DNA of 64,000 bases from Escherichia phage SUT_E1520. Both the position numbers and the translations under genes were made by a program. How positions within the stretch are numbered: position 1 is the first letter of the stretch; each line of letters opens with the position of its first letter. Under the pieces are notes generated by a model, which worked only from the letters and a program-made list of their open reading frames with translations, was not told the origin of the DNA and did not search any database. Positions 7,466-58,067 of the stretch are shown here, piece after piece. The stretch is from the sequence record OQ885479; one strand, given 5' to 3'.

Positions 7466-9388
7466 ATGAGTTTTTTCGCTGGCAAGCTAAATAATAAATC
7501 TATACTCTCTCTGCGCAGGGGTAGTGGCGGAGATACTAATCAACATATTAATCCTGACTCTCAGACCATATTCCATTCAGATATGCCCCATGTTATCATA
7601 ACAGAAACTCACTCCACAGGGTTAAGGCTAGATCAAGGTGCTGGAGATTACTACTGGTCTGATATGCCTAGCAGAATTACCCAGTTACATAATAATGATC
7701 CTAATAGAGTTGTGCTGACGGAGATTGAGTTCTCAGATGGCTCTAGACATATGTTATCCGGTATGTCTATGGGGGTAGGTGCTAAGGCGTACGGAATTAT
7801 AAATCCACAGGTCATGTCCCAGGGTGGCTTAAAAACACAAATAACAGCTAGTGCTGATCTATCCCTTGATGTAGGTTATTTTAACAGTGGAACTAGTGGA
7901 ACTATTCCCCAGAAGCTTAGAGATGGTACTGGATGTCAGCATATGTTTGGCGCCTTTAGTGGGCGTAGAGGATTTGCATCTAGTGCAATGTACTTAGGTG
8001 GTGCCGCTCTTTATAAGTCTGCCTGGGATGGTTCAGGATATATTGTGCCCAGCTCAGGATCCATAACTATCCCTAGCGACTACGTTAGGCATCCCGGAGC
8101 TAGAAACTTTGGATTTAACGCCATATATGTTCGTGGTAGATCTTGCAATAGAGTTCTTTACGGTATGGAAGGGCCTAACTATACCACTGCTGGAGCTGTG
8201 CACGGTGCTTCTAGTTCTGGGGCTCTTAACTTTATAGATAACCCTAGCAATCCCTCGGCTCCTAAGTACTCTGTAGGTTTCGCACGTGCTGATCCCACTA
8301 ACTATGCTTATTGGGAAAGTATGGGTGATCCGAATGATGCTGCTAATGGGCCTATAGGTATATATAGTGAGCACCTCGGTATTTATCCATCTAAAATTAC
8401 TTGGTATGTTACCAATCTAGTATACAATGGCTCAGGATACAGTATTGATAGTGGGCTATTTACTGGCAATGATATTAAACTTAGCCCAAGAGAGTTTATT
8501 ATTAAAGGGGTTAATGTTAATAATACGTCATGGAAGTTTATTAACTTTGTTGAGAAAAACTTTAATGTAGGTAGCAGAGCTGATTTTCGTGATGTTGGGT
8601 GTAACTTGAGTATGGGTGCCCCCTCTACTGGAGTTTCTGGCATAGCAACATTTGGGCTGCCCACTACGGAAAGCAATAACGCACCAAGTATTAAAGGTGG
8701 TAACGTTGGTGGTTTAAATACTAATGTAGTTAGTATTTATAACTTTTTACCTTCAGCATCTTGGTATGTTTCTAGTAATCCTCCAAAAATAGGCAGCAAT
8801 TATGGAGATGTTTGGAGTGAGAATCTTTTACCTTTAAGACTTCTAGGTGGTAGCGGAAGTACTGTACTATCTGGTAACATAGTATTTCAGGGTAATGGTT
8901 CCGTGCATGTTGGCACCGTGGGACTAGATCTTAATAGTAGTAGAAATGGCGCAATTGTATGTACTATGGAGTTCCTGGATGACACATGGTTGTCTGCAGG
9001 AGGTATTGGCTGCTTTAATCCTACGGAAATGCTATCTAAAGGCGCCGAATATGGAGATAGTAGGTTCAGAATGGGTGGCAATACTATCGATAAAAAACTT
9101 CACCAAATATTGTCCCTACCTGCAGGAGAATATGTACCATTTTTTACTATTAAAGGTACTGTAGTAAATGCTTGTAAATTACAGGCTGCTGGGTATACTC
9201 CAACTCCGTACTGGGTATCTGGGTTGCCGGGATCAGTAGGTCAAACGGGTTACTATACTCTAACATATTATATGAGAAATGATGGAAATAATAATATCTC
9301 TATTTGGTTAGAATCCTCTATGAGCAATATAATTGGCATGAAAGCATGCTTACCAAATATTAAACTTATAATTCAACGCCTTACCTAA
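7466..9388 (+). CDS. oad: receptor-binding tail protein pb5
   Basis: 640 aa, equal to T5 pb5; adjacent and divergent to llp; GGAG SD. Confidence 0.85.
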
Positions 9389-46158: not shown

Positions 46159-46926
46159 TTATTCAGCAGCCGCAGCTTTTGCATCCAGTTTAGCACGCTT
46201 AGCGGCACCATCATAGTCCTTAGCAACCAGACCACGACGAGACAGCATAGATTTAACACCGCGCTCAGATTTACCAGTTTTCTCAGCGATCTCAGCAACA
46301 GTCATGTTAACCAGATCCAGACCTTCTAACAGATCTTCACGAGTTTTAGCACTTGAGGTTTCCTGTACCGGCATAGCAGCGATACGACCTTCACGAAGCA
46401 GACTCAGAGCTTTACCACGGATCTGCTTAATATTGCGACCGAAGTGAGCAGCGATAGCTTCAATAGTAGCACCAGCAACAACCTGATTAACAAAATCAGT
46501 TTCTTCATCCGGAGTAAAGGAACGAACAGCAGCAGCTTTTTCAGTTGGTTTAACAGAAGCGGTCATTTCCAGGCTCAGAATCTTACCCTGTACCTGCTTA
46601 GCACCGAACTGACCACCAGCTACAGCAGCAGCGATTTCAGCATAGGTATACTGACCAGCATGAGCGTTCAGGAAATCAACCAGTTCAGCTTCCTGCTCAG
46701 GAGTCCACGGGGATTTCTGTACTTCGTTAGCTTTCTGTACTTCAAAACCTTCTTTACGCAGTTTAGAGCCAACAGAGCGAGCGGTAACATCTTTGCCAGT
46801 TTCAGCAGCCAGTTCAGCGGCGATAGCGGCTACTTGTTCTTGAGAGATTACAGAAACACCCAGAGCAGTGGCTTTTGCTTTCAGAGACTCGGTTACACCT
46901 TCTACGTTCCAGTTCAGTTTAGACAT
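46159..46926 (-). CDS. DNA-binding protein with four internal HTH-like repeats (T5 D5-like, putative)
   Basis: 255 aa; repeated segments of the type TGKSERGVKSMLSRRGL; position between ligase and helicase. Confidence 0.55.
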   Translation of the reverse strand: MSKLNWNVEGVTESLKAKATALGVSVISQEQVAAIAAELAAETGKDVTARSVGSKLRKEGFEVQKANEVQKSPWTPEQEAELVDFLNAHAGQYTYAEIAAAVAGGQFGAKQVQGKILSLEMTASVKPTEKAAAVRSFTPDEETDFVNQVVAGATIEAIAAHFGRNIKQIRGKALSLLREGRIAAMPVQETSSAKTREDLLEGLDLVNMTVAEIAEKTGKSERGVKSMLSRRGLVAKDYDGAAKRAKLDAKAAAAE

Positions 46927-47692
46927 TATTATTTTTCTCCAATAGTTCTTTAATCGACAGGATTTCTATCCCATTCGTTTCGGCTTTCTTATAAGATGAG
47001 GAAGAACGCTTCGATTCATCCTCACAGATTAGGTATTTGACGTCTTTGGTAACAGATTTCTTAACCGTATATCCTAGACCTTCTAAATAGTTTGTTGCAT
47101 CCGTTCGATTTGCAAAGTCTTGCAAAGATCCGGTAATACATACCGCGATTCCATTTGGCTGGGCAACTAAATCATCAGTAACGACGGTTTTAGCTTTAGC
47201 ACCAGTTGAGAATTTCCACGGTAATTCGATAACATCCTTGCCTTGTGGGGAATTTAGCCAGGCTTTATAATTTTCTCCAGCCTTGCCGTCAGCCTTCACA
47301 TCGTGGAAGCTAGTGCAATTTTGGGATAATTTCTTTGCTGCAACCTCTCCAATTAGAGGGATTCCTAAAGAACCGAGAACTGAACCAAAGTCAATGTCTC
47401 CGCGAACTTTAGTATTTAATTCGCTAATTAACTTAGCGGCAACCTTGCTACCCACGGCTCTAACCAAATCTTCTTCGGTTAGGTAAAATAGTTCTGAAAT
47501 CTTCGTCAGCTCCAGCTTCTCAATAGTTTTTGGACCAAAACCCTTTAACTTCATTTTTGTACAGAAGTTCTCAATTAACTTACTTGATTGCGCTGGACAG
47601 TTGGACTTATTCCGACAAAATAATTGTCCGTTGACAAGATCTAGCTTAGAACCACAAGAGGGACATTGTGTTGGAATTTCGATTTTCATCAA
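46919..47692 (-). CDS. NAD-dependent DNA ligase, C-terminal part (Zn finger, HhH, BRCT) expressed as separate subunit
   Basis: 257 aa; CPSCGSKL...CRNKSNC zinc finger at N-terminus; BRCT-like C-terminus. Confidence 0.8.
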   Translation of the reverse strand: MMKIEIPTQCPSCGSKLDLVNGQLFCRNKSNCPAQSSKLIENFCTKMKLKGFGPKTIEKLELTKISELFYLTEEDLVRAVGSKVAAKLISELNTKVRGDIDFGSVLGSLGIPLIGEVAAKKLSQNCTSFHDVKADGKAGENYKAWLNSPQGKDVIELPWKFSTGAKAKTVVTDDLVAQPNGIAVCITGSLQDFANRTDATNYLEGLGYTVKKSVTKDVKYLICEDESKRSSSSYKKAETNGIEILSIKELLEKNNNV

Positions 47693-47727
47693 ATTTCTTC
47701 CTTATCAATTTATATAAATATTATAGC

Positions 47728-47758
47728 AAGTATTTAAGCATTTAGCAACTACAATTTT
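47728..47758 (-). promoter_or_regulatory. early promoter between the two ligase genes (TTGCTA ... TATAAT)
   Basis: rc of TAGCAA and ATTATA blocks in the 200-bp gap between ligase parts; coordinates approximate. Confidence 0.45.
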
Positions 47759-47891
47759 AACTAACTTTGCTTACCCTCGCCATAACTTTCTATCCCTCAA
47801 CTGAATGATACTAGTATATACCTAAGCGGCGAAAATGTCAATAACCACTTTATAATTCCGATATGGTAGATGGGTAGCAAAGGGTTATGTA

Positions 47892-48863
47892 TTACTCGTA
47901 TACTCGCTCTACTATGCACGGGATTACACCACCAGCACGAATCACTCGAATCTGGCAACCGATCTCTAGATCAAGAGAGTTAATATAATCAACGTTATTA
48001 AGAGTCGCTTTAACAATTGTAGCATCATCAATAATTACCGGTTCGAAATAACCAACTGGAGTTACTTTACCAGAAGCCCCTACCTGCCATTCAACTTTAG
48101 TAAGAGTTGTAACCTCGCCTTCTTCATCCTCTTTAATAGCGAATGCTCCACGAGGGAATTTATTAGTCCAGCCTTCACGGAAGAATTTGTTGTTGTCATT
48201 AATACGAACAACTTTACCATCCGTCGGAATCCATTTAAAGAAGGAACGCACATTAACAACTGTTAAGAAGTTCTCATTCTCCAGCCAAAGCATATCTTTT
48301 AAATATGCTTCTGTAATACCTACAGATTCAGCAGAACACTGGATACCATATGCAACGAAGATTAAACCACCTTCTCCGATACGTTGTACAAAATCATCAC
48401 TATCTTTGAGGTTAATAGCACCAGAGGCAAAGTTACGTTTATTTTCTACTTCTTTTGTAATTAGAACTTCACCAGTGATTTGAGTAGGTACTTTTTGGGA
48501 AATCTTTTTAGGGATATTCAGCAATCTTACGTTGCTTGTGACATCATTCCCTAGAATACCATTACCACGAGTTAGTGCTTGAACAAATTCGCCATTAATA
48601 TATAACAGAGAAATTGCACAACCATCTAACTTATCAGTTTCTACTTGACCTAACGGGTTAAACGGAGGTTTATCTCCACGATTATAATAAACTTTCTGTA
48701 AAGAATACATACGATACAGATGTGGAATATCGCCCTTAGGTCCGATCTCTTCTTCTAACGGAAAGCGTTTTACCAGGCAATCATACTCTTCATCAGAGAT
48801 TAAAGACATACCTTGATAATATGCTTCTTGGCAACGTTTAATAAAGTCTTTTACATTGGTCAT
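47892..48863 (-). CDS. NAD-dependent DNA ligase, N-terminal part (adenylation plus OB domain) expressed as separate subunit
   Basis: 323 aa; KLDG adenylation motif (ETDKLDGCAIS); OB-domain RAGGVIP motif at C-terminus. Confidence 0.8.
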   Translation of the reverse strand: MTNVKDFIKRCQEAYYQGMSLISDEEYDCLVKRFPLEEEIGPKGDIPHLYRMYSLQKVYYNRGDKPPFNPLGQVETDKLDGCAISLLYINGEFVQALTRGNGILGNDVTSNVRLLNIPKKISQKVPTQITGEVLITKEVENKRNFASGAINLKDSDDFVQRIGEGGLIFVAYGIQCSAESVGITEAYLKDMLWLENENFLTVVNVRSFFKWIPTDGKVVRINDNNKFFREGWTNKFPRGAFAIKEDEEGEVTTLTKVEWQVGASGKVTPVGYFEPVIIDDATIVKATLNNVDYINSLDLEIGCQIRVIRAGGVIPCIVERVYE

Positions 48864-51445: not shown

Positions 51446-51688
51446 TTACGATTCCTTGAGTAAAGAAGCAAGTTCAGCATAGACTTTATCTAATTCAAAG
51501 CCGATACGAAGAGACACGTTTGTTTTCCGTTGTTTAAGTAACCACTCGGATATGTTAGGGATGCCAGCTAATCTATGCGGTACCACCCTACATAGCTTTT
51601 CCGAAGTGTCGTAAACAGGAACTTTACGTTCTTTTACTGGAAACTTCCTTGTTTCCCATTTTTTATTCTTCACTGTCATTTCTAGCAC
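51446..51688 (-). CDS. hypothetical protein
   Basis: 80-aa ORF. Confidence 0.45.
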   Translation of the reverse strand: MLEMTVKNKKWETRKFPVKERKVPVYDTSEKLCRVVPHRLAGIPNISEWLLKQRKTNVSLRIGFELDKVYAELASLLKES

Positions 51689-54452
51689 CTAGCTCTGCCA
51701 TTGCTTCATCATGCATATGTTTCTCCTCATCAGTCATAAACTTATAGGGGATTGGCATACACTCGATTTTACAATAGGTTCTGTACCAGTCTACAATATT
51801 TTCAGTGTTCATATCCTTACCAATACCCATCATACCAAGATACATTCTGGCATATTTTGGGTTAGCACTCTGACCTGTTTTAAGGAAGAAATCTTTCTTC
51901 TTACCTTTCAGAGCTTCTATGAATGGTTTGATAGTGACATTTGAACACTTCTTAATATCTTCCCAGAACATCTCGTGCATTTTATGGAAGAATGCCGCTC
52001 GATCATTAGGTTTATCCTTGATATATTGTTCAACATGCTCAACTGTTACATCTTTAATAGACTCAAGATGATAGTAGCGAACAAGAAGTAGTTTAGCTTC
52101 ATACGCATCAGCATGACGTGGAGCACAATAATCAGGAGTTGAATATAAAATAGCTTTGATTCGCTCTTCCGTATATTCCTTCCCAGCACCTTCGATAGTT
52201 CCCCAGCTTTCACTGAAAATATCAATAGTTGCACCCTGATCAAGCAAGTAATAACGTAAAGTACTAGTATAATTCCTAGATTCCAGCTCTCTACGACGTG
52301 CGTATAATTGTTGTGCTAACTCCAGCCAACCTTCGTCAATGTTATATTGCTCAGAACCTGCGGAGAATCCACTCGTAGATTTATCAATAAAATAATAAAT
52401 GTTCTGAGCGCCACGGTCGCGCCTGATTGCTTGGAAACGCATGTTTGGCGCTTGGTTGCTGGTTCTAGTAATAACGAATACGTTATCAAAATAGTTGAAG
52501 TCAACACCACTTGTTACGGATGGACTACATAATAAGCAATCAATTTGTTGATCAATTAGCTCATTAGTTGTGTAATCCAGAATACGTCGAATATCTACAT
52601 CGGATGTAGAATTTGAGTGGATTTCCTTAACTAACGCACCCGTATTACGACGCAATGCCATACCCTTCTCATTCAGTTCATCCGGCCCACAGTCAGATAC
52701 TAGGATAGATTTCTCACCCATCTCTAGAGAAGTCTGAAGTGCAACCCAAATACTGGATTCATCCGGGAACTCATAAGCATGAGCTTTTGATAGCATTTTA
52801 CGGTGATGGTTATAAAATGCTACTGGTTTATCAAACTCAATCAAAGAACCATATGCTTCAATTGTTTCTGCACTAATATCCCCATCAGATAATATAATGA
52901 TTTTTGCAGTTGCAAGAATATCCCGAAGAACCTGAATACACTCGCGACGTTGTTTAACAACCGGGGCGAATAATAGGTCATTCATTACTGCATCACATTC
53001 ATCGATAAAGATTGCATCAATTTGACCAATAAAACTCTTGAATTTATGCAAAGAGTGAATAGTTGTGGACATACGGTCAATAGCACCCCGCTTAAAATTA
53101 AGCATATCTACAGACTTATCATATTGTCCTGCACTAAATTTCTTGGCATTTGAAGATACCAGTGCTCTAGTATTGGTAATTGCTAAGAAATTACCTTTAA
53201 TAACTCCTGAATCTAACCAACGCACAACCGCTGTAGTTTTACCTGTACCTAGACTTGCTTTTACAAAAGTCATATAACCTTCTGGTGGTACAGTATTTAA
53301 TTTCAAGAAGTTATCAGTTTCTAGAGAATTAGTTTCTAGCTTTTTAAGTGGAATACCCTTTAAAACATCAGGTATATCACGTTTAGAATTATTAACAAAT
53401 GCTTTCAGAGCCTGTTTACGACCGTTATTAAAGTAATCTTGAATATTGCGACTGTTATCTTTAGTTGCAATATATTCTGATAAGGCTGGACGGATTTCTT
53501 TTTCTAGCCATGCAAAATCAACACCATCCTCTAAGGCTCTGTGATAGAGTTTAGGTATGATACGTAGATACACTCCATCCTCAGCTTCTTCTAGTTCGCT
53601 GATAGTTTCCTCTACTTTATCAGAGGCAGCTTTTTTACCTTTAATTTGATCGAGTAAAGAGTAAAACTCCTCCTTAAACTCACCTCTAGTTGTTTCATAG
53701 TCAACCAGATTATTGGGTAAATTTACTTTAGAACCCTTAACAAATACCAGACGTGAAGCACCCTCCGCTTTAAACGGATCTACTATACCATCGGTAAATA
53801 ACGGATCTGCAAAATAGTGGAGCTGTACGGAAGAGTAATAAGCTAAGTCGGCAATATCAAAGCCATACTTTTGTCTACTACTTTCGTTGATAGATGTAAA
53901 TAAGAATTTGATTTGACCCTGAGTTACTTTAACATTAGATTCTAGTATTAAGTGCATTCGGATACCTGGTTTTAGCCCAGCCGAAGACGATGCATGAGCG
54001 ATAAACCCTGCATCAAGAGGAAACATATCCTCACTAATACTATTTAACATTCTAATAATATGTCGAGCCATGCCAACAAGATCAAACTTGTTGCAACCAC
54101 CTGTATCTACAATACCATCCACGTCCATTGCAATTATATGACTTGGGTTAGATACATTAAAGTTGCCCTTCTTACGTCGCACATTATTTTTAGGTGTAAG
54201 ACATCGACCTCGTACCGCAACGATATGAGGGTCAGACGTTAAACGTCTCATAAGAGGAAGCATTTCTACTAGGGTTTGAGGATCAACTTCATCAATTACA
54301 TCAAACTTGAAGGGCATTGAAGCTGGTTTACCTTCAGGATGCTTTGAGGAAAATCTTTTAGCAAAAAGATAGTCTTCTGCTTTAACTTCTCGCCAATTGC
54401 CTGTGGCTAAATCGCGATGAAATCCTGCATGACCTTGTAGGATTGAGAACAC
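51663..54452 (-). CDS. SF2-type helicase / ATPase resembling replication-origin-binding proteins
   Basis: Walker A ASLGTGKTT, DECD box IFIDECDAV, QAIRRDRG motif-VI-like; start set at GTG 54452 with AGGAG 7 nt upstream; alternative ATG at 54317. Confidence 0.65.
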   Translation of the reverse strand: MFSILQGHAGFHRDLATGNWREVKAEDYLFAKRFSSKHPEGKPASMPFKFDVIDEVDPQTLVEMLPLMRRLTSDPHIVAVRGRCLTPKNNVRRKKGNFNVSNPSHIIAMDVDGIVDTGGCNKFDLVGMARHIIRMLNSISEDMFPLDAGFIAHASSSAGLKPGIRMHLILESNVKVTQGQIKFLFTSINESSRQKYGFDIADLAYYSSVQLHYFADPLFTDGIVDPFKAEGASRLVFVKGSKVNLPNNLVDYETTRGEFKEEFYSLLDQIKGKKAASDKVEETISELEEAEDGVYLRIIPKLYHRALEDGVDFAWLEKEIRPALSEYIATKDNSRNIQDYFNNGRKQALKAFVNNSKRDIPDVLKGIPLKKLETNSLETDNFLKLNTVPPEGYMTFVKASLGTGKTTAVVRWLDSGVIKGNFLAITNTRALVSSNAKKFSAGQYDKSVDMLNFKRGAIDRMSTTIHSLHKFKSFIGQIDAIFIDECDAVMNDLLFAPVVKQRRECIQVLRDILATAKIIILSDGDISAETIEAYGSLIEFDKPVAFYNHHRKMLSKAHAYEFPDESSIWVALQTSLEMGEKSILVSDCGPDELNEKGMALRRNTGALVKEIHSNSTSDVDIRRILDYTTNELIDQQIDCLLCSPSVTSGVDFNYFDNVFVITRTSNQAPNMRFQAIRRDRGAQNIYYFIDKSTSGFSAGSEQYNIDEGWLELAQQLYARRRELESRNYTSTLRYYLLDQGATIDIFSESWGTIEGAGKEYTEERIKAILYSTPDYCAPRHADAYEAKLLLVRYYHLESIKDVTVEHVEQYIKDKPNDRAAFFHKMHEMFWEDIKKCSNVTIKPFIEALKGKKKDFFLKTGQSANPKYARMYLGMMGIGKDMNTENIVDWYRTYCKIECMPIPYKFMTDEEKHMHDEAMAELGARNDSEE

Positions 54453-54539
54453 AACAATACTCCTGTGTTGGAAATGAAATAAGTTTTCTTTAGGACTATT
54501 CAGAAAGAATAGAACAACTGTTACTGTCAATTTCTCAAC

Positions 54540-54890
54540 AAATTAATCGCAAATACTGAAGTGGGGTGGCAACTTCCACTTTCACGCTGCGCTGCTGCTT
54601 TGCTATACCGCACAAATCCTTGAGGATGGCCGCTAAGCCAGATTTGCTCACCTAATGCTTCATGTACTAGCTCATACTAGATGCAATATAACTTACAGAA
54701 TCACGTCTCGGAGTTTTTCACTCCTCCCGTCTCACTTCACAACCACCTCTATCTAGGTTGCTTCGAGGCCTTACCAGGGTTCCTACGGGACGCAGATCGC
54801 TAAGTATTCTATTAACTATTTGTTTAAAAACTAACACGTAACAGTTAAAACAACCCTTAATTGGGCAGCCTAACTGTTCCGTATCGCGGA
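54540..54890 (-). other. ORF-free, relatively GC-rich island transcribed from an upstream promoter; candidate structured RNA or origin
   Basis: no credible ORF in any frame (the track's single ORF here initiates at a non-ATG codon); several short stems visible by eye (for example TCCCGT...ACGGGA, GGAGT-GAAAA-ACTCC). Confidence 0.3.
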
Positions 54891-54951
54891 TTGTAAACAA
54901 GAAAAATTAGCAAAATCAATTTTTACTAATATCTCTCAATTCAATATAAAT

Positions 54952-54980
54952 ATTATATCAAGATTTTGAGCATCCTGCAA
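54952..54980 (-). promoter_or_regulatory. sigma70 promoter (TTGCAG-17-TATAAT) reading into the ORF-free island
   Basis: rc of 54975-54980 is TTGCAG, 17-bp spacer, rc of 54952-54957 is TATAAT; downstream leader resembles the early-promoter leader but has no SD or ATG. Confidence 0.4.
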
Positions 54981-55019
54981 GTAAAATTTTCCGGATGGTG
55001 CTATCATTGGTCTTGAGTA

Positions 55020-55048
55020 CGGATAAAACCGAGCCAAAATGACTCGGT
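55020..55048 (-). terminator. rho-independent terminator
   Basis: ACCGAG-N9-CTCGGT followed by TTTTAT on the minus strand. Confidence 0.65.
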
Positions 55049-55074
55049 AATCAGAGTTCAGCTAATAAAAATCA

Positions 55075-55464
55075 TTAGTCATTTAATCCCGGAACATATA
55101 TCCCAACACGGTTTAATTGTTCTTTAGCTTCTTTGAGAATATCTGGAGTGTACTCCCAAATATCATTTTCCACCTGTAAAAGATGGGGCGAACAACCATC
55201 ATCCGGCACACGACATATGGCAAAACCACGTGGATGGAACAAAGAGAAATTTAGGGCAACAATTAAACCCATAGCAGACAACTCATTCCAATCCAGTTCC
55301 CATTCCCTGGCGTATCCAGACAGGAAAACGCCAATGCATGGATCATCTATTTGCTGCTCAGGAAAAGTGAAGGAGGCTTGTCTTACCCCCAACCAACGTT
55401 GTAGCAGCTTCTCCGCACGTTTCACCAAACTAGGGTCAATCTGACGCCAATATACTTGTTCCAT
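55075..55464 (-). CDS. hypothetical protein, paralog A
   Basis: 129 aa; shares PCIG, W-ELD-MGL-ALN and C-terminal VPGL motifs with the adjacent gene. Confidence 0.55.
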   Translation of the reverse strand: MEQVYWRQIDPSLVKRAEKLLQRWLGVRQASFTFPEQQIDDPCIGVFLSGYAREWELDWNELSAMGLIVALNFSLFHPRGFAICRVPDDGCSPHLLQVENDIWEYTPDILKEAKEQLNRVGIYVPGLND

Positions 55465-55473
55465 TCTGCCTCC

Positions 55474-55902
55474 TTAAGCAGTTAAACCTGGGATCATATA
55501 CCCGAAACGGCGAAGTTTTTGGATACCATCATTCACTTCTTCTGGTGAGTAAGACCAACCGTAACGTTCATTAACTTGAAAACCAGGAGATTCACTAGTT
55601 TTATAGTTAACAACGAGGCGATGCTTAGCAGGCATAAACAGCTTATAGTTTAACGCAAAAACTAAGCCCATTTCATCTAACTCTTTCCAGCCGACAATCT
55701 CTTCAAGACCCTCCTCTACCTGAACAATTAAACCAATACAGGGGGCTTCATCAATATCATCTTTAAAAGCAAAGTAGATTTCGTTATTCTCACACCATAT
55801 TTTCAAAGAGTTAATAGCCTCATTATACAGGCTAGCTGGAAGAGTACGCCAAAAGTTAACCAAAATTGGGTTAGCTTCTTTAGAGAATACATTATTGAAC
55901 AT
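55474..55902 (-). CDS. hypothetical protein, paralog B
   Basis: 142 aa; same motif set as paralog A. Confidence 0.55.
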   Translation of the reverse strand: MFNNVFSKEANPILVNFWRTLPASLYNEAINSLKIWCENNEIYFAFKDDIDEAPCIGLIVQVEEGLEEIVGWKELDEMGLVFALNYKLFMPAKHRLVVNYKTSESPGFQVNERYGWSYSPEEVNDGIQKLRRFGYMIPGLTA

Positions 55903-55904
55903 AT

Positions 55905-56417
55905 TTACACCTTAAATTGTTGTAAGGATTTACACATTTCAAGATCTGGGCTAAATTCTAGCATATAGCTAACAGCTTTTAAATCTTGAAGATTTATACC
56001 AGTCCTACCGTTGACTATAACCGTTGGATACTGATACATCATAGCACCCGCATCATCAAGCACACACCAATGTTTGAGCTTATGCTTTTCAACGAAGCGA
56101 AGAACAGAATTACCCCTAGATAATCCACCACCAGTAAAATCCGTTGTACCAAGAAAACGATCGATAAGGCCTAATCCGGTCATAATCTGAACGTTCTCCA
56201 TCTCATTTCTGACAGAGAACCAAGATGATACTCCAACAATCATTATTGGAGAAGGACGAATAAAGTCCTGAAAAGCCTTGAGAAGCGGTTTGAAAACCCA
56301 ATCACTTCCAAAGAAAATCTTTTCATCATCAGGTGCATGATAGTGGGAGATGCTCGAATTGAGCACCCCATCAATGTCTAGAAAAATAATTGGAGTATTA
56401 CTTATTTCCTGACACAT
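55905..56417 (-). CDS. HAD-superfamily phosphatase-like protein
   Basis: 170 aa; HAD motif I IIFLDIDGVLN at N-terminus; start overlaps the Sir2-like gene stop. Confidence 0.6.
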   Translation of the reverse strand: MCQEISNTPIIFLDIDGVLNSSISHYHAPDDEKIFFGSDWVFKPLLKAFQDFIRPSPIMIVGVSSWFSVRNEMENVQIMTGLGLIDRFLGTTDFTGGGLSRGNSVLRFVEKHKLKHWCVLDDAGAMMYQYPTVIVNGRTGINLQDLKAVSYMLEFSPDLEMCKSLQQFKV

Positions 56418-57213
56418 AAGGTCTACCCCCTAAATGAGCTTCTACACGAGCAATAAAATCAGGATCACTGAAAGCATCTACCGCACCTTTACCCCAGTAA
56501 GGGATACCGCGTTCTTCCAGCTGGTACATCTCACTACGAGTCATACCTTGATAGCTCGGTTCCGCCGCTAGGGCACTATCATAGTAGTTAACAACCATTA
56601 GCTTGGCAGCAGTCAAATTAAGAACAGGAAATAATTCCCAGTAGAAGTTAATTACTTGGTTAGAGCAACCAACCACAATGATCATATCTTGACTGGTAAT
56701 ACCATCAAAAACATTGTACATCTCCGCATATGCTGGAGCATGCTCTCCAAAGAAGATTACATTAGGTTTAACCCATTTATAATCATCTGGATCAATAGAA
56801 TTGTATCCTACATCAATAATCCGTTTATTGCTACTATTGTAGCTATCAGCTACAACAACCTCTTTTAAATATCCATGAATGTGTAGAATGTCATTATGTG
56901 GAACGCCAGAACGCTCAATAAGGTCATCAACGTTGGTAGTCAAGTTTACTACTTGACCTGGATATTGTTTATACCATTCACCGATACGCAAATGCGCAAG
57001 ATTGGGTTCAACAGTTTTTAGCTCTTCACGACGCTTGTTGTAAAACATATGGGTTTTATGATAAAAATTACCACGAAAGGCATGAATATTACATACTTCT
57101 TCTAGATCATAATCATCCCACAATGCTTTACCACTAGCAGTATCAGTACGAAAAGCTCGTACACCACTTTCAACACTCAAACCTGCACCGCTAATAACAA
57201 TTAATCTACGCAT
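56398..57213 (-). CDS. Sir2-like (sirtuin family) NAD-binding protein
   Basis: 271 aa; GAGLSVESGVRAFR matches the sirtuin GAGIS-ESGIP-FR motif; TTNVDDL, catalytic-His-like HIHG, VIFFGE; no CxxC zinc module seen. Confidence 0.7.
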   Translation of the reverse strand: MRRLIVISGAGLSVESGVRAFRTDTASGKALWDDYDLEEVCNIHAFRGNFYHKTHMFYNKRREELKTVEPNLAHLRIGEWYKQYPGQVVNLTTNVDDLIERSGVPHNDILHIHGYLKEVVVADSYNSSNKRIIDVGYNSIDPDDYKWVKPNVIFFGEHAPAYAEMYNVFDGITSQDMIIVVGCSNQVINFYWELFPVLNLTAAKLMVVNYYDSALAAEPSYQGMTRSEMYQLEERGIPYWGKGAVDAFSDPDFIARVEAHLGGRPYVSGNK

Positions 57214-57427
57214 TTTTCACCTGTTCTCTGAAGTTTTGCCCAATACTGTCTAATAGCTCAGCTAATTCTTTATTGCCTTTCTCCATTAAGGTATTAGCAA
57301 TAACTTCTAGCATAGTAGCGCAGGATTCAACACCATCCTTATAGCCAGTTTCCCAGTGCTGCATTAATGCGTTTTCCAAAGCGGCGTTTAAACCCTTATC
57401 TGGTAGCATCGGCTTCGAGAATGCCAT
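57206..57427 (-). CDS. hypothetical protein
   Basis: 73-aa ORF overlapping neighbours (translational coupling). Confidence 0.45.
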   Translation of the reverse strand: MAFSKPMLPDKGLNAALENALMQHWETGYKDGVESCATMLEVIANTLMEKGNKELAELLDSIGQNFREQVKNA

Positions 57428-57620
57428 AAAGTTTCTCCTCTAGTTCCATAACACGATTTTCATAAGAGGCACGCAACTTTTCAATTGCCAGCGCACGCAC
57501 TGTAACCTCGTTAGAATTAATAGCTAATTGGGCCAGGTCTTCTGTTTCCATACGTCCATTGTAAATTAAGCGATATTTAAGATGTTTTACATTCTTAGCC
57601 ATTATTAAACTCCACTGCAA
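57396..57620 (-). CDS. hypothetical protein
   Basis: 74-aa ORF. Confidence 0.45.
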   Translation of the reverse strand: MQWSLIMAKNVKHLKYRLIYNGRMETEDLAQLAINSNEVTVRALAIEKLRASYENRVMELEEKLYGILEADATR

Positions 57621-57975
57621 CTGTTTCTAGGTCTTCATCAGAAAAATTATAGTATACATCTTTAAGATACTGTTTAATACCTTTAGTAATATCTTCGTAT
57701 CCCTCGGGATTACGTTGGTATACTTTTAATACTCTATTATAAACAAATTCAATATCATACTTTATTTCATCCTCATCCTCGTCAAACAAGCAATCTGAGT
57801 TATATGGTGATACATCTAGATTTGTTTCTACCCAATCACCAATAATTGATGAATATCCAATACCCTCTAGATGGGAATAATCTCCAGTAGATGCAAAAAT
57901 AGCTTCTCTAAGATCGTCTACGCCAAGATGGAAACCACCACATGTAGACTCAACTATATAGGGCTTTAATTCCAT
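57595..57975 (-). CDS. hypothetical highly acidic protein
   Basis: 126 aa with about 28 Asp/Glu against about 10 Lys/Arg; first gene after a PN25-like promoter. Confidence 0.5.
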   Translation of the reverse strand: MELKPYIVESTCGGFHLGVDDLREAIFASTGDYSHLEGIGYSSIIGDWVETNLDVSPYNSDCLFDEDEDEIKYDIEFVYNRVLKVYQRNPEGYEDITKGIKQYLKDVYYNFSDEDLETVAVEFNNG

Positions 57976-58042: not shown

Positions 58043-58067
58043 AGCCAGGTCGACTAGCAACCCGGCT
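58043..58067 (-). terminator. weak stem-loop after nrdD
   Basis: AGCCGG-N-CCTGGCT imperfect stem followed by a T-rich tract. Confidence 0.3.

What the first reader, a model, noticed from the sequence alone, without database searches (positions are those of the whole stretch)
55905..57213. Overlapping HAD-phosphatase and Sir2-like gene pair in the early region
A Sir2-family protein with an intact sirtuin NAD-binding motif set (but no visible zinc-ribbon cysteines) is translationally coupled to a HAD-type phosphatase; the genes overlap by 20 nt. Sir2 domains in prokaryotes act as deacetylases or NAD+ hydrolases, and NAD+ depletion is a common anti-phage strategy. In a phage that also depends on an NAD-dependent ligase, this pair could modulate NAD+ or ADP-ribose pools or counter NAD-targeting defences. 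The function is not derivable from sequence alone.
Basis: inference. Interest (0 to 1): 0.5.

Follow-up and report, generated by a model that had tools for sequence, protein, structure and literature searches.

The report
T5-phage zinc-less sirtuin plus HAD phosphatase
A T5-like phage carries two real, overlapping genes, a zinc-less sirtuin and a cap-less HAD phosphatase; this pairing was already described in 2022 as a predicted NAD-dependent RNA-repair module, and nobody has yet tested what it does.

Summary
Minus-strand ORFs 56398..57213 (271 aa, Pfam SIR2, E=4e-24) and 55905..56417 (170 aa, Pfam HAD_SAK_2, E=9e-20) overlap by 20 nt. The window is a T5-like phage, 100% identical over the 3-kb query to Escherichia phage SUT_E420.

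The sirtuin keeps every NAD-binding and catalytic motif and the CobB/SIRT5-type YxxR anion pocket, but lacks all zinc-ribbon cysteines, as does its whole phage clade. The HAD keeps all four catalytic motifs and models as a cap-less HAD.

The pair is not new. Iyer et al. 2022 (PMC9503650) describe it in T5-like phages and predict a KptA/Tpt1-like, NAD-dependent removal of RNA phosphates. I confirmed the supporting contexts: the same Sir2 clade sits in a Metallophos, Rnl1 ligase, kinase, Sir2 cassette in ~146-kb phages.

The coupling is loose. Most T5-likes have a small ORF between the two genes, some relatives reverse the order, and some lack the HAD nearby. T5-likes have no RNA ligase or polynucleotide kinase.

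No experimental work on either protein was found.

The parts
56398..57213 (-). Sir2-family protein, 271 aa. It is a zinc-less, CobB-like (class III-like) sirtuin of a phage-specific clade.
   Evidence: Pfam SIR2 E=4e-24 and phrog_2162 E=5e-119. Best solved-structure relative by sequence is E. coli CobB 1S5P, E=4e-17. AF2 model pLDDT 88; Foldseek top hits are CobB structures with TM 0.72/0.85. Invariant G9-A10-G11-x-S13, F21-R22, Y58-x-x-R61-R62, T93-N94-V95-D96, H113-G114, F154-F155-x-E157, G182-x-S184 and N209, with no zinc cysteines.
55905..56417 (-). HAD-superfamily phosphatase, 170 aa, HAD_SAK_2 family, with little or no cap.
56398..56417 (-). 20-nt overlap between the Sir2 3' end and the HAD 5' end (ATGTGTCAGGAAATAAGTAA).
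   Evidence: Read directly from the sequence. The same layout occurs in only 3 of 19 T5-like IMG/VR loci (L007, L008, L025); the others carry a small ORF between the genes.
56425..56431 (-). Shine-Dalgarno-like AGGGGG(T), 8 nt upstream of the HAD ATG, inside the Sir2 coding sequence.
   Evidence: Read from the sequence. Lindwurm has an annotated ribosome-binding site at the equivalent position.
57595..57975 (-). 126-aa protein of unknown function, first gene of the same tightly packed gene run. It is a recurrent third partner of the Sir2 gene.
   Evidence: phrog_11748 E=2e-69, no Pfam match. Homologous (41% identity, E~2e-11) to the 116-118-aa gene lying between HAD and Sir2 in Erwinia phage KEY and in L005. 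Also found next to Sir2 in L117 and L141.
57206..57620 (-). Two small ORFs (about 74 aa and 73 aa) of unknown function, between the 126-aa gene and Sir2. The 73-aa ORF overlaps the Sir2 start by 8 nt.
   Evidence: phrog_5236 and phrog_5827. Present in T5-like loci. Coordinates.
55075..55902 (-). Two tandem DUF7415 paralogues (142 aa and 129 aa) immediately downstream of the HAD. They are the last genes of the packed run.
   Evidence: Pfam DUF7415 E=1e-36 and 9e-32. The two are 31% identical to each other. A DUF7415 gene follows Sir2 even in lineages without a nearby HAD.
58043..58067 (-). Terminator-like hairpin just downstream of nrdD. It marks the upstream boundary of the seven-gene run that holds the pair.
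   Evidence: Terminator scan. Lindwurm has an annotated terminator at the equivalent position.
46919..48863 (-). Context only: the split NAD-dependent DNA ligase (subunit A 47892..48863, subunit B 46919..47692), about 7-9 kb further along the same strand.
   Evidence: Pfam DNA_ligase_aden and DNA_ligase_OB for subunit A; HHH_2 and BRCT for subunit B.

Best explanation
The pair is the T5-family version of a phage NAD+-dependent RNA-end repair module. In this reading the zinc-less sirtuin uses NAD+ to remove a phosphate from a damaged RNA end. The phosphate oxygen, held in the conserved Y58-x-x-R61 anion pocket, attacks C1'' of NAD+ and releases nicotinamide. [quoted passage not shown] This is the chemistry of KptA/Tpt1 carried out on a sirtuin scaffold.

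The Mg-dependent, cap-less HAD phosphatase does one of two jobs. Either it removes the other terminal phosphate (3'-P) from the RNA, or it dephosphorylates the ADP-ribose phosphate by-product.

The biological purpose would be to restore tRNAs or other RNAs cut by host metal-independent nucleases (anticodon nucleases, toxins). T5-likes have no RNA ligase of their own, so sealing or CCA re-addition would have to be done by host enzymes.

Shown here: gene identities, intact active sites, folds and genomic contexts.
Inferred: the substrate, the chemistry and the biological role.
For: 1. The hypothesis is published for exactly this pair in T5-like phages, with phage SP15 as the type example (PMC9503650 section 3.7.3).

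2. I verified the key context. In Raoultella phage Ro1 and Erwinia phage pEa_SNUABM_55, the same Sir2 clade (about 61% and 50% identical to the window protein) is embedded, with overlapping or abutting genes, in the cassette Metallophos phosphoesterase, T4 Rnl1-type RNA ligase, (cREC in Ro1), AAA_33 kinase, Sir2. cREC lies next to Sir2 in 8 loci.

3. An independent distant lineage, a 608-kb contig with a Sir2 35% identical, again has an Rnl1-type ligase 1.2 kb upstream of Sir2.

4. The HAD belongs to Pfam HAD_SAK_2, a family defined from RNA-repair proteins. In other phages its homologues lie near RNA ligases in four loci: L029, L030, L003 and L071. One homologue is fused to a Metallophos phosphoesterase.

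5. A homologue of the Ro1 cassette's Metallophos is present elsewhere in the T5-like genome (jackhmmer E=1e-37).

6. The Sir2 keeps the catalytic His and Asn and the YxxR motif. In CobB and SIRT5 that motif binds an anionic acyl group (established knowledge, from memory), so it is compatible with binding a phosphate.

7. The HAD model resembles cap-less HADs that act on macromolecules.

8. Sir2 and HAD stay adjacent in two different gene orders within the T5 family, which argues for selection on linkage.

9. T5-likes carry 24 annotated tRNA genes, consistent with pressure at the tRNA level.
Against: - No experiment supports any of this.
- The complete T5-like genome examined has no RNA ligase, no polynucleotide kinase and no cREC. 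The T5 pair is therefore at best a stripped-down module that depends on host enzymes.
- The HAD is absent within +/-10 kb of Sir2 in several related lineages: Slocum, L118/119, L141 and L143/144. It is not an obligate partner.
- Most T5-likes separate the two genes with a small ORF.
- The Sir2 is sequence- and fold-closest to true protein deacylases and keeps the peptide-binding FGE motif.
- Both proteins are acidic (median pI about 5.2), which is not what is typical of RNA-binding enzymes. This is weak evidence.
- No sirtuin has ever been shown to act on a phosphate (own knowledge).
- Most HAD homologues in other phages sit among replication and nucleotide-metabolism genes with no RNA-repair gene nearby.
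Confidence: 0.4

Rival explanations
1. The Sir2 is an ordinary NAD+-dependent protein lysine deacylase (CobB-like, possibly preferring acidic acyl groups such as succinyl). It strips acyl marks from host or phage proteins early in infection. The HAD is a separate cap-less phosphatase, acting on proteins or other macromolecules, that merely shares the gene cluster. Together they would be two 'erasers' of host modifications.
For: - Best sequence and fold matches are all true deacylases: CobB, Sir2Af, Sir2Tm and SIRT5.
- The catalytic His, the FGE peptide-stapling motif and the YxxR pocket of desuccinylases are invariant.
- The acidic pI is like that of CobB.
- The HAD is dispensable near Sir2 in some lineages.
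Against: - Scores fall well below the NCBIfam CobB cut-offs (99 vs 243 bits; 88.7 vs 320 bits).
- The zinc-ribbon module that shapes the peptide cleft has lost its cysteines across the whole clade.
- This reading does not explain why the clade is repeatedly embedded in RNA ligase and kinase cassettes.
- The host already has CobB.
Confidence: 0.28
2. The pair manages NAD+/ADP-ribose metabolites to counter NAD-targeting defences. For example, the HAD would dephosphorylate phosphorylated ADP-ribose species (ADPR-1''-P made by RES-type defences, or 2'-P-ADPR from NADP), doing the job of the Macro-domain phosphatase Adpp in NARP1-AP. The Sir2 would interconvert or consume NAD-derived molecules.
For: - HAD homologues 38-40% identical overlap by 4 nt the Adps-like gene of an Adps-like plus Namat-like (NARP1-like) pair in Serratia phage ChuuTotoro and Acinetobacter phage ABPH49.
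- A phosphatase that feeds NARP1 is an experimentally shown strategy, although that enzyme is a Macro domain (preprint 10.64898/2026.01.28.702374).
- The Sir2 clade lies 1.5-6 kb from NARP1-like genes in 10 loci, and directly after a true Nampt in L146.
- T5-likes also encode a NADAR protein and depend on an NAD+ ligase.
Against: - T5-likes have no Adps or Namat to use the product.
- The NARP1-linked HAD clade is rare: 3 of 440 phage records.
- The Sir2 is not of the NADase type.
- A phage enzyme that consumes NAD+ would worsen NAD+ depletion rather than relieve it.
- Proximity to NAD salvage genes is expected for any NAD-consuming enzyme, so it does not point to a substrate.
Confidence: 0.17
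3. There is no functional link. The adjacency reflects inherited gene order in a variable early-gene region of the T5 family. The HAD would be a nucleotide or other small-molecule phosphatase serving dNTP metabolism, and the Sir2 would act independently.
For: - The pair sits between nrdD and the replication genes.
- HAD homologues in other phages neighbour thymidylate synthase, primase, DnaB-type and Dda-type helicases.
- The gene content around Sir2 varies between lineages: small WCYR ORF, DUF7415, the 126-aa family, and HAD present or absent.
- Outside the T5 family, none of about 60 HAD loci has a Sir2 within 8 kb, and none of about 34 Sir2 loci has a HAD within 10 kb.
Against: - Adjacency survives a reversal of gene order (KEY and L005 versus T5).
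- Both families independently show links to RNA ligase and to NAD salvage genes.
- Cap-less HADs more often act on macromolecules (plus established knowledge).
Confidence: 0.15

Closest known systems
Phage 'RNA-repair' sirtuin clade of Iyer, Burroughs, Anantharaman and Aravind 2022 (Viruses 14:1977), type 3 neighbourhood, with Escherichia phage SP15 as the example
   Same: [quoted passage not shown] The sister configurations with Rnl1, cREC, kinase and Metallophos were verified here.
   Different: Nothing structural differs. This window belongs to the minority subgroup in which the intervening small ORF is absent and the two genes overlap by 20 nt. The published function is a prediction only.
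E. coli CobB and human SIRT5 (class III sirtuin deacylases)
   Same: Same fold (TM 0.72/0.85 to CobB), the same NAD-binding and catalytic residues, and the same YxxR anion-binding motif.
   Different: Only about 24-30% identity, and scores far below the NCBIfam CobB cut-offs. All four zinc-ribbon cysteines are lost or deleted. There is an extra C-terminal segment. It is encoded by a phage, in RNA-repair or replication contexts.
KptA/Tpt1 RNA 2'-phosphotransferase
   Same: This is the proposed functional analogue. It consumes NAD+, releases nicotinamide, removes an RNA phosphate as ADP-ribose cyclic phosphate, and occurs with RNA ligases (PMC6573784 abstract listed).
   Different: The fold is unrelated: Tpt1 is an ADP-ribosyltransferase-fold enzyme and this protein is a Rossmann-fold sirtuin. 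The shared activity is untested.
Phosphatase domain of T4 polynucleotide kinase-phosphatase (Pnkp)
   Same: Both are DxDxT-type HAD phosphatases encoded by phages. Pnkp heals RNA 3' ends (established knowledge).
Adpp, the ADPR-1''-phosphate phosphatase of the extended NARP1-AP pathway (Osterman et al. 2026 preprint)
   Same: A phage phosphatase gene placed inside a NARP1 operon. A HAD_SAK_2 homologue sits just upstream of, and overlaps, the Adps-like gene of the NARP1-like pair in ChuuTotoro and ABPH49, a comparable within-operon position.
   Different: Adpp is a Macro-domain protein, not a HAD. T5-likes lack NARP1 altogether. The substrate of the HAD is unknown.

Membership tests
Sir2/sirtuin superfamily (Pfam PF02146) | Profile score above the curated threshold, and a Rossmann fold with the GAGxSxxSGIxxFR NAD-binding loop | tested here: met
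   86 bits against a 24-bit cut-off. G9-A10-G11-x-S13...F21-R22 is invariant. The AF2 model matches sirtuin structures at E=3e-16.
Sir2/sirtuin superfamily (Pfam PF02146) | Catalytic His (HG motif) and the Asn/Asp of the TQNID motif | tested here: met
   H113-G114 and T93-N94-V95-D96 are invariant in 34 sequences and align with the same motifs in CobB.
Sir2/sirtuin superfamily (Pfam PF02146) | Four-cysteine zinc ribbon in the small domain | tested here: not met
   No clade member has cysteines at the CobB zinc positions, and the CHCC segment is deleted. The model keeps a three-stranded sheet there. The protein is a member of the superfamily, but a zinc-less variant.
CobB-type (class III) protein deacylases | NCBIfam equivalog or subfamily score above the curated cut-off | tested here: not met
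   Best scores are 99 bits against a 243-bit cut-off (NF001753) and 88.7 against 320 (NF040867).
CobB-type (class III) protein deacylases | YxxR acidic-acyl pocket, and NAD-dependent deacylase activity | tested here: inconclusive
   The Y58-x-x-R61 motif is present and invariant. The role of this motif in CobB and SIRT5 is taken from memory. Enzyme activity cannot be tested with these tools.
Defence-type SIR2 NADases (ThsA, DSR1/2, SIR2-HerA, pAgo-associated) | Match to the defence-system Sir2 models | tested here: not met
   No Sir2 model is hit in PADLOC. The only hit is a spurious type I restriction enzyme match at E=0.03.
Macro-linked ADP-ribosylating sirtuins (SirTM type) | An adjacent Macro-domain gene | tested here: not met
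   None of the seven neighbouring proteins scanned has a Macro domain, and Lindwurm has none annotated nearby. Iyer et al. also note the absence of a Macro partner for this clade.
HAD superfamily phosphatases, HAD_SAK_2 family (PF18143) | Four HAD motifs, including the DxD nucleophile and acid pair, and a profile score above threshold | tested here: met
HAD superfamily phosphatases, HAD_SAK_2 family (PF18143) | Association with RNA-repair domains, by fusion or neighbourhood | tested here: inconclusive
   T5-likes show no such association. RNA ligase lies nearby in L003, L029, L030 and L071. Among the ten longer homologues scanned, picked from the top 150 hits, most are tandem HAD duplications and one is a Metallophos fusion.
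T4-type RNA heal-and-seal pathway (Pnkp plus Rnl1) | A 5'-kinase and an RNA ligase encoded by the same phage | tested here: not met
   No homologue was found in the window or in the whole Lindwurm genome by phmmer and jackhmmer, and none is annotated there.
KptA/Tpt1 2'-phosphotransferases | ADP-ribosyltransferase fold; NAD-dependent removal of RNA 2'-phosphate | tested here: not met
   The fold is a sirtuin Rossmann fold, not an ART fold. The protein can only be a functional analogue. The activity cannot be tested here.
NARP1 / NARP1-AP NAD+ reconstitution pathway | Adps (Prs-like) and Namat (Nampt-like) genes present | tested here: not met
   No homologue in the window or in the Lindwurm genome. 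These genes accompany relatives of the HAD and the Sir2 only in other phages.

The most novel reading that the evidence does not exclude
The phage sirtuin is a new kind of sirtuin enzyme. Its nucleophilic substrate would be a phosphate monoester (an RNA 2'/3'-phosphate, or another phospho-substrate) rather than an acyl-lysine, which would make it a convergent, Rossmann-fold analogue of Tpt1. The HAD_SAK_2 partner would be a previously unrecognised phosphatase for ADP-ribose phosphates or RNA-end phosphates. The same HAD family would have been independently recruited into NARP1 operons, as a HAD counterpart of the Macro-domain Adpp.
Probability: 0.25. Interest if true: 0.75.

Novelty: already known. 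Interest (0 to 1): 0.33.

Why it matters
If the published prediction is right, sirtuins would gain a new reaction class: NAD-dependent dephosphorylation of nucleic-acid ends. T5-family phages, which are widely used as models and in phage therapy, would gain a defined counter-measure against RNA-cleaving host defences. The side observation that the same HAD family sits in NARP1-like operons links RNA-end repair to the current NAD+ arms-race literature and suggests a second, non-Macro route for recycling phosphorylated ADP-ribose. As it stands, though, this locus is a well-conserved, already described and already annotated gene pair with no experimental function. Its value is as a clear target for biochemistry, not as a discovery.

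Tried and rejected
- Defence-type NADase reading of the Sir2: rejected. It has no PADLOC match and a CobB-like fold.
- The 269-277-aa ORFs overlapping the HAD start in L027, L028, L076 and L029 as cryptic Sir2 genes: rejected. One is a thymidylate synthase and another has no Pfam family.
- The unannotated 187-aa gene upstream of Adps in phage Ro1 as a cryptic HAD: rejected. hhalign probability is 0.7%, and it looks like a wHTH plus T5orf172-type protein.
- The 118-aa gene next to Sir2 as a divergent cREC: no support. In KEY and L005 it is instead homologous to the window's 126-aa protein; the Slocum 118-aa protein is not detectably related to either.
- Search for an RNA ligase, polynucleotide kinase, cREC, NARP1 or NADAR homologue in the window: none found. 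In the whole Lindwurm genome only a Ro1-type Metallophos and a NADAR protein turned up.
- Clustering of the neighbours of about 60 non-T5 HAD loci: no family recurs across clades.
- Domain-fusion search for the HAD family: mostly tandem duplications, so only weakly informative.
- Isoelectric point as an indicator of RNA binding: both proteins are acidic, but this is too weak to decide anything.
- Intergenic region 54531-55074: no notable repeats and no Rfam match.
- Literature searches for experimental work on the T5 Sir2 or on HAD_SAK_2: nothing found.
Full report
**What is there.**
The window is a T5-like phage (family Demerecviridae). The 3-kb stretch around the finding is 100% identical to Escherichia phages SUT_E420 and SUT_E520, and matches 446 phage records in all.

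On the minus strand, ORF 56398..57213 encodes a 271-aa protein and ORF 55905..56417 a 170-aa protein. They share 20 nt. A Shine-Dalgarno-like AGGGGG lies 8 nt upstream of the second ATG, inside the first gene. The first protein is a Sir2-family protein (Pfam SIR2, E=4e-24) and the second a HAD phosphatase of the HAD_SAK_2 family (E=9e-20).

**Gene context.**
Using the well-annotated relative Lindwurm as a guide, the pair lies in a tightly packed seven-gene run on the minus strand. The order is: a terminator after nrdD (58043-58067), a 126-aa gene, two small genes of about 74 and 73 aa, Sir2, HAD, then two DUF7415 paralogues. A long non-coding gap and the origin-binding helicase follow. Gene overlaps are the norm in this run, so the Sir2/HAD overlap is not special in itself.

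**The sirtuin.**
- A search of 5.8 billion proteins returned a large clade; every hit that carries a source name is from a phage or a mislabelled phage contig. Genome sizes are about 110 kb (T5-like) and about 145-150 kb.
- In an alignment of 34 members, all NAD-binding and catalytic positions are invariant: G9-A10-G11-x-S13, F21-R22, T93-N94-V95-D96, H113-G114, F154-F155-x-E157, G182-x-S184 and N209. None has the zinc-ribbon cysteines.
- The closest solved relatives by sequence and by fold are true deacylases. E. coli CobB is the best match (E=4e-17; TM 0.72/0.85), followed by archaeal and Thermotoga Sir2 and human SIRT5. The model is confident, with pLDDT 88.
- CobB's 'FYNARR' aligns with the invariant 'FYNKRR' (Y58, R61). 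This is the YxxR motif that, from my own knowledge of CobB and SIRT5, binds an anionic acyl group.
- The protein is not a CobB orthologue, because its scores fall far below the NCBIfam cut-offs. It is not a defence-type NADase, because it has no PADLOC match.

**The phosphatase.**
- All four HAD motifs are invariant in 27 homologues.
- The model is very confident, with pLDDT 95.6.
- The family is large. A profile search of 1.84 billion representative proteins found 2,784 at E≤1e-10, nearly all of them stand-alone proteins of 150-190 aa. The ten longer homologues scanned are mostly tandem HAD duplications, and one is a Metallophos-HAD fusion.

**It is already described.**
Iyer, Burroughs, Anantharaman and Aravind (Viruses 2022, PMC9503650, section 3.7.3) report a distinct phage sirtuin clade in three conserved neighbourhoods. 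[quoted passage not shown] They propose that the sirtuin acts like KptA/Tpt1, removing RNA 2'-phosphates with NAD+. The associated phosphoesterases would either prepare the RNA end or process the ADP-ribose cyclic phosphate by-product. I found no experimental test of this.

**Testing the contexts.**
- I verified their second neighbourhood. In Raoultella phage Ro1 and Erwinia phage pEa_SNUABM_55, the same Sir2 clade follows a Metallophos phosphoesterase, a T4 Rnl1-type RNA ligase, (cREC in Ro1) and an AAA_33 kinase, with overlapping or abutting genes.
- A distant lineage on a 608-kb contig again has an Rnl1-type ligase 1.2 kb upstream of Sir2.
- HAD homologues lie near RNA ligases in L003, L029, L030 and L071.
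- Against this, a complete T5-like genome has no RNA ligase, polynucleotide kinase or cREC. It has only a Ro1-type Metallophos and a NADAR protein at distant loci, plus 24 annotated tRNA genes.

**How firm is the pairing?**
- Every T5-like locus has both genes. In 16 of 19 IMG/VR loci, however, one or two copies of a 60-71-aa ORF (motif W-x-D-G-S/T-W-C-Y-R) lie between them. Only this window's subgroup has the 20-nt overlap.
- Erwinia phage KEY and contig L005 have the reverse order: HAD, then a 116-118-aa gene, then Sir2. That middle gene is homologous to the window's 126-aa protein.
- Serratia phage Slocum, L118/119, L141 and L143/144 keep Sir2 with the small ORF and/or DUF7415, but have no HAD within the 6-10 kb examined on either side.
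- Outside this phage family, neither gene is found near the other.
- So linkage is favoured within the family, but the HAD is not an obligate partner.

**The NAD thread.**
- In Serratia phage ChuuTotoro and Acinetobacter phage ABPH49, a HAD homologue (38-40% identical) overlaps by 4 nt the Adps-like gene of an Adps-like plus Namat-like pair. This looks like the NARP1 NAD+-reconstitution pathway.
- A 2026 preprint shows that a phosphatase inserted in NARP1 operons (Adpp, a Macro-domain protein) converts ADPR-1''-phosphate to ADPR and so defeats RES-type defences. The HAD could be a non-homologous counterpart of Adpp. This clade is rare, though: 3 of 440 phage records.
- The Sir2 clade lies 1.5-6 kb from NARP1-like genes in ten ~146-kb-phage loci, and directly downstream of a true Nampt in L146.
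- These links fit any NAD-consuming enzyme.

**Verdict.**
The best-supported reading (confidence about 0.4) is the published one. The pair is a stripped-down, NAD+-dependent RNA-end healing module, in which the sirtuin handles one phosphate by Tpt1-like chemistry. Its anion pocket and catalytic His fit this, but that step is inference. The HAD would remove another phosphate or process the ADP-ribose phosphate by-product.

The rivals are:
- an ordinary CobB-like deacylase with an unrelated phosphatase (0.28);
- NAD/ADP-ribose pool management (0.17);
- mere inherited gene order (0.15).

The finding is real but already known and widely annotated. Its interest lies in the untested chemistry.

Noticed in passing
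Absent from the window at the 56398-56417 junction; present in relatives, e.g. L010 7829-8011 and L009 7653-7838 plus 7829-8011: Most T5-likes carry one or two tandem copies of a 60-71-aa ORF (conserved W-x-D-G-S/T-W-C-Y-R motif, no Pfam family) between Sir2 and HAD. The same small ORF follows Sir2 in lineages with no nearby HAD (L118/119, L143/144). This window's phage lacks it; its Sir2 ends in ...SGNK, similar to the small ORF's ...NGNK ending, which hints at a deletion that joined the two.
   Followed up: partly
window 57595-57975 (-): The 126-aa protein of unknown function is homologous (41% identity, E~2e-11) to the gene lying between HAD and Sir2 in Erwinia phage KEY and in L005. It also sits next to Sir2 in L117 and L141. 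It may be a third component of the module. It has no Pfam family.
   Followed up: partly
L001 6001-9217 (Serratia phage ChuuTotoro) and L002 6001-9222 (Acinetobacter phage ABPH49): A three-gene arrangement of HAD_SAK_2, an Adps-like gene and a Namat-like gene, with a 4-nt overlap between HAD and the Adps-like gene. This could be a HAD-based counterpart of the Macro-domain 'NARP1-AP' pathway. I did not find it described in the papers I read.
   Followed up: partly
window 55905-56417 (-); GenBank records listed: PHROG phrog_18062, labelled 'Sir2 (NAD-dependent deacetylase)', matches the C-terminal half of the HAD protein (E=6e-58), not the Sir2. As a result many phage records annotate the HAD gene as a second 'Sir2'. 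Others call it 'RNA repair protein', taken from the Pfam family name.
   Followed up: yes
window 55075-55902 (-): Two tandem DUF7415 paralogues, 31% identical to each other, lie directly after the HAD. A DUF7415 gene follows Sir2 in several lineages with no nearby HAD (Slocum, L141, L143/144). Function unknown.
   Followed up: partly
Outside the window: Lindwurm L152 1393-1842 and L152 30138-30728: T5-likes encode a NADAR-domain protein (annotated 'N-glycosidase'; Pfam E=6e-22). They also encode a Metallophos phosphoesterase homologous to the one in the Ro1 RNA-repair cassette (jackhmmer E=1e-37). Both could belong to the same ADP-ribose/RNA-end network despite lying 10-40 kb away.
   Followed up: partly
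window 54531-55074: An unusually long (~540 bp) non-coding gap lies between the last DUF7415 gene and the origin-binding helicase gene. It shows no notable repeats, no Rfam match, and only weak promoter-like and terminator-like sites.
   Followed up: yes
window 51663-54530 (-): The mechanically listed 955-aa ORF starts at a TTG. The Lindwurm orthologue is annotated about 26 codons shorter (929 aa), so the true start is probably an internal codon.
   Followed up: no
L146 8057-10705; L147 10001-11198: Distant members of the Sir2 clade sit next to a true Nampt (L146) and next to a nucleoside 2-deoxyribosyltransferase-like protein (L147). This shows that the clade's neighbourhoods are not uniformly RNA-repair.
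   Followed up: partly
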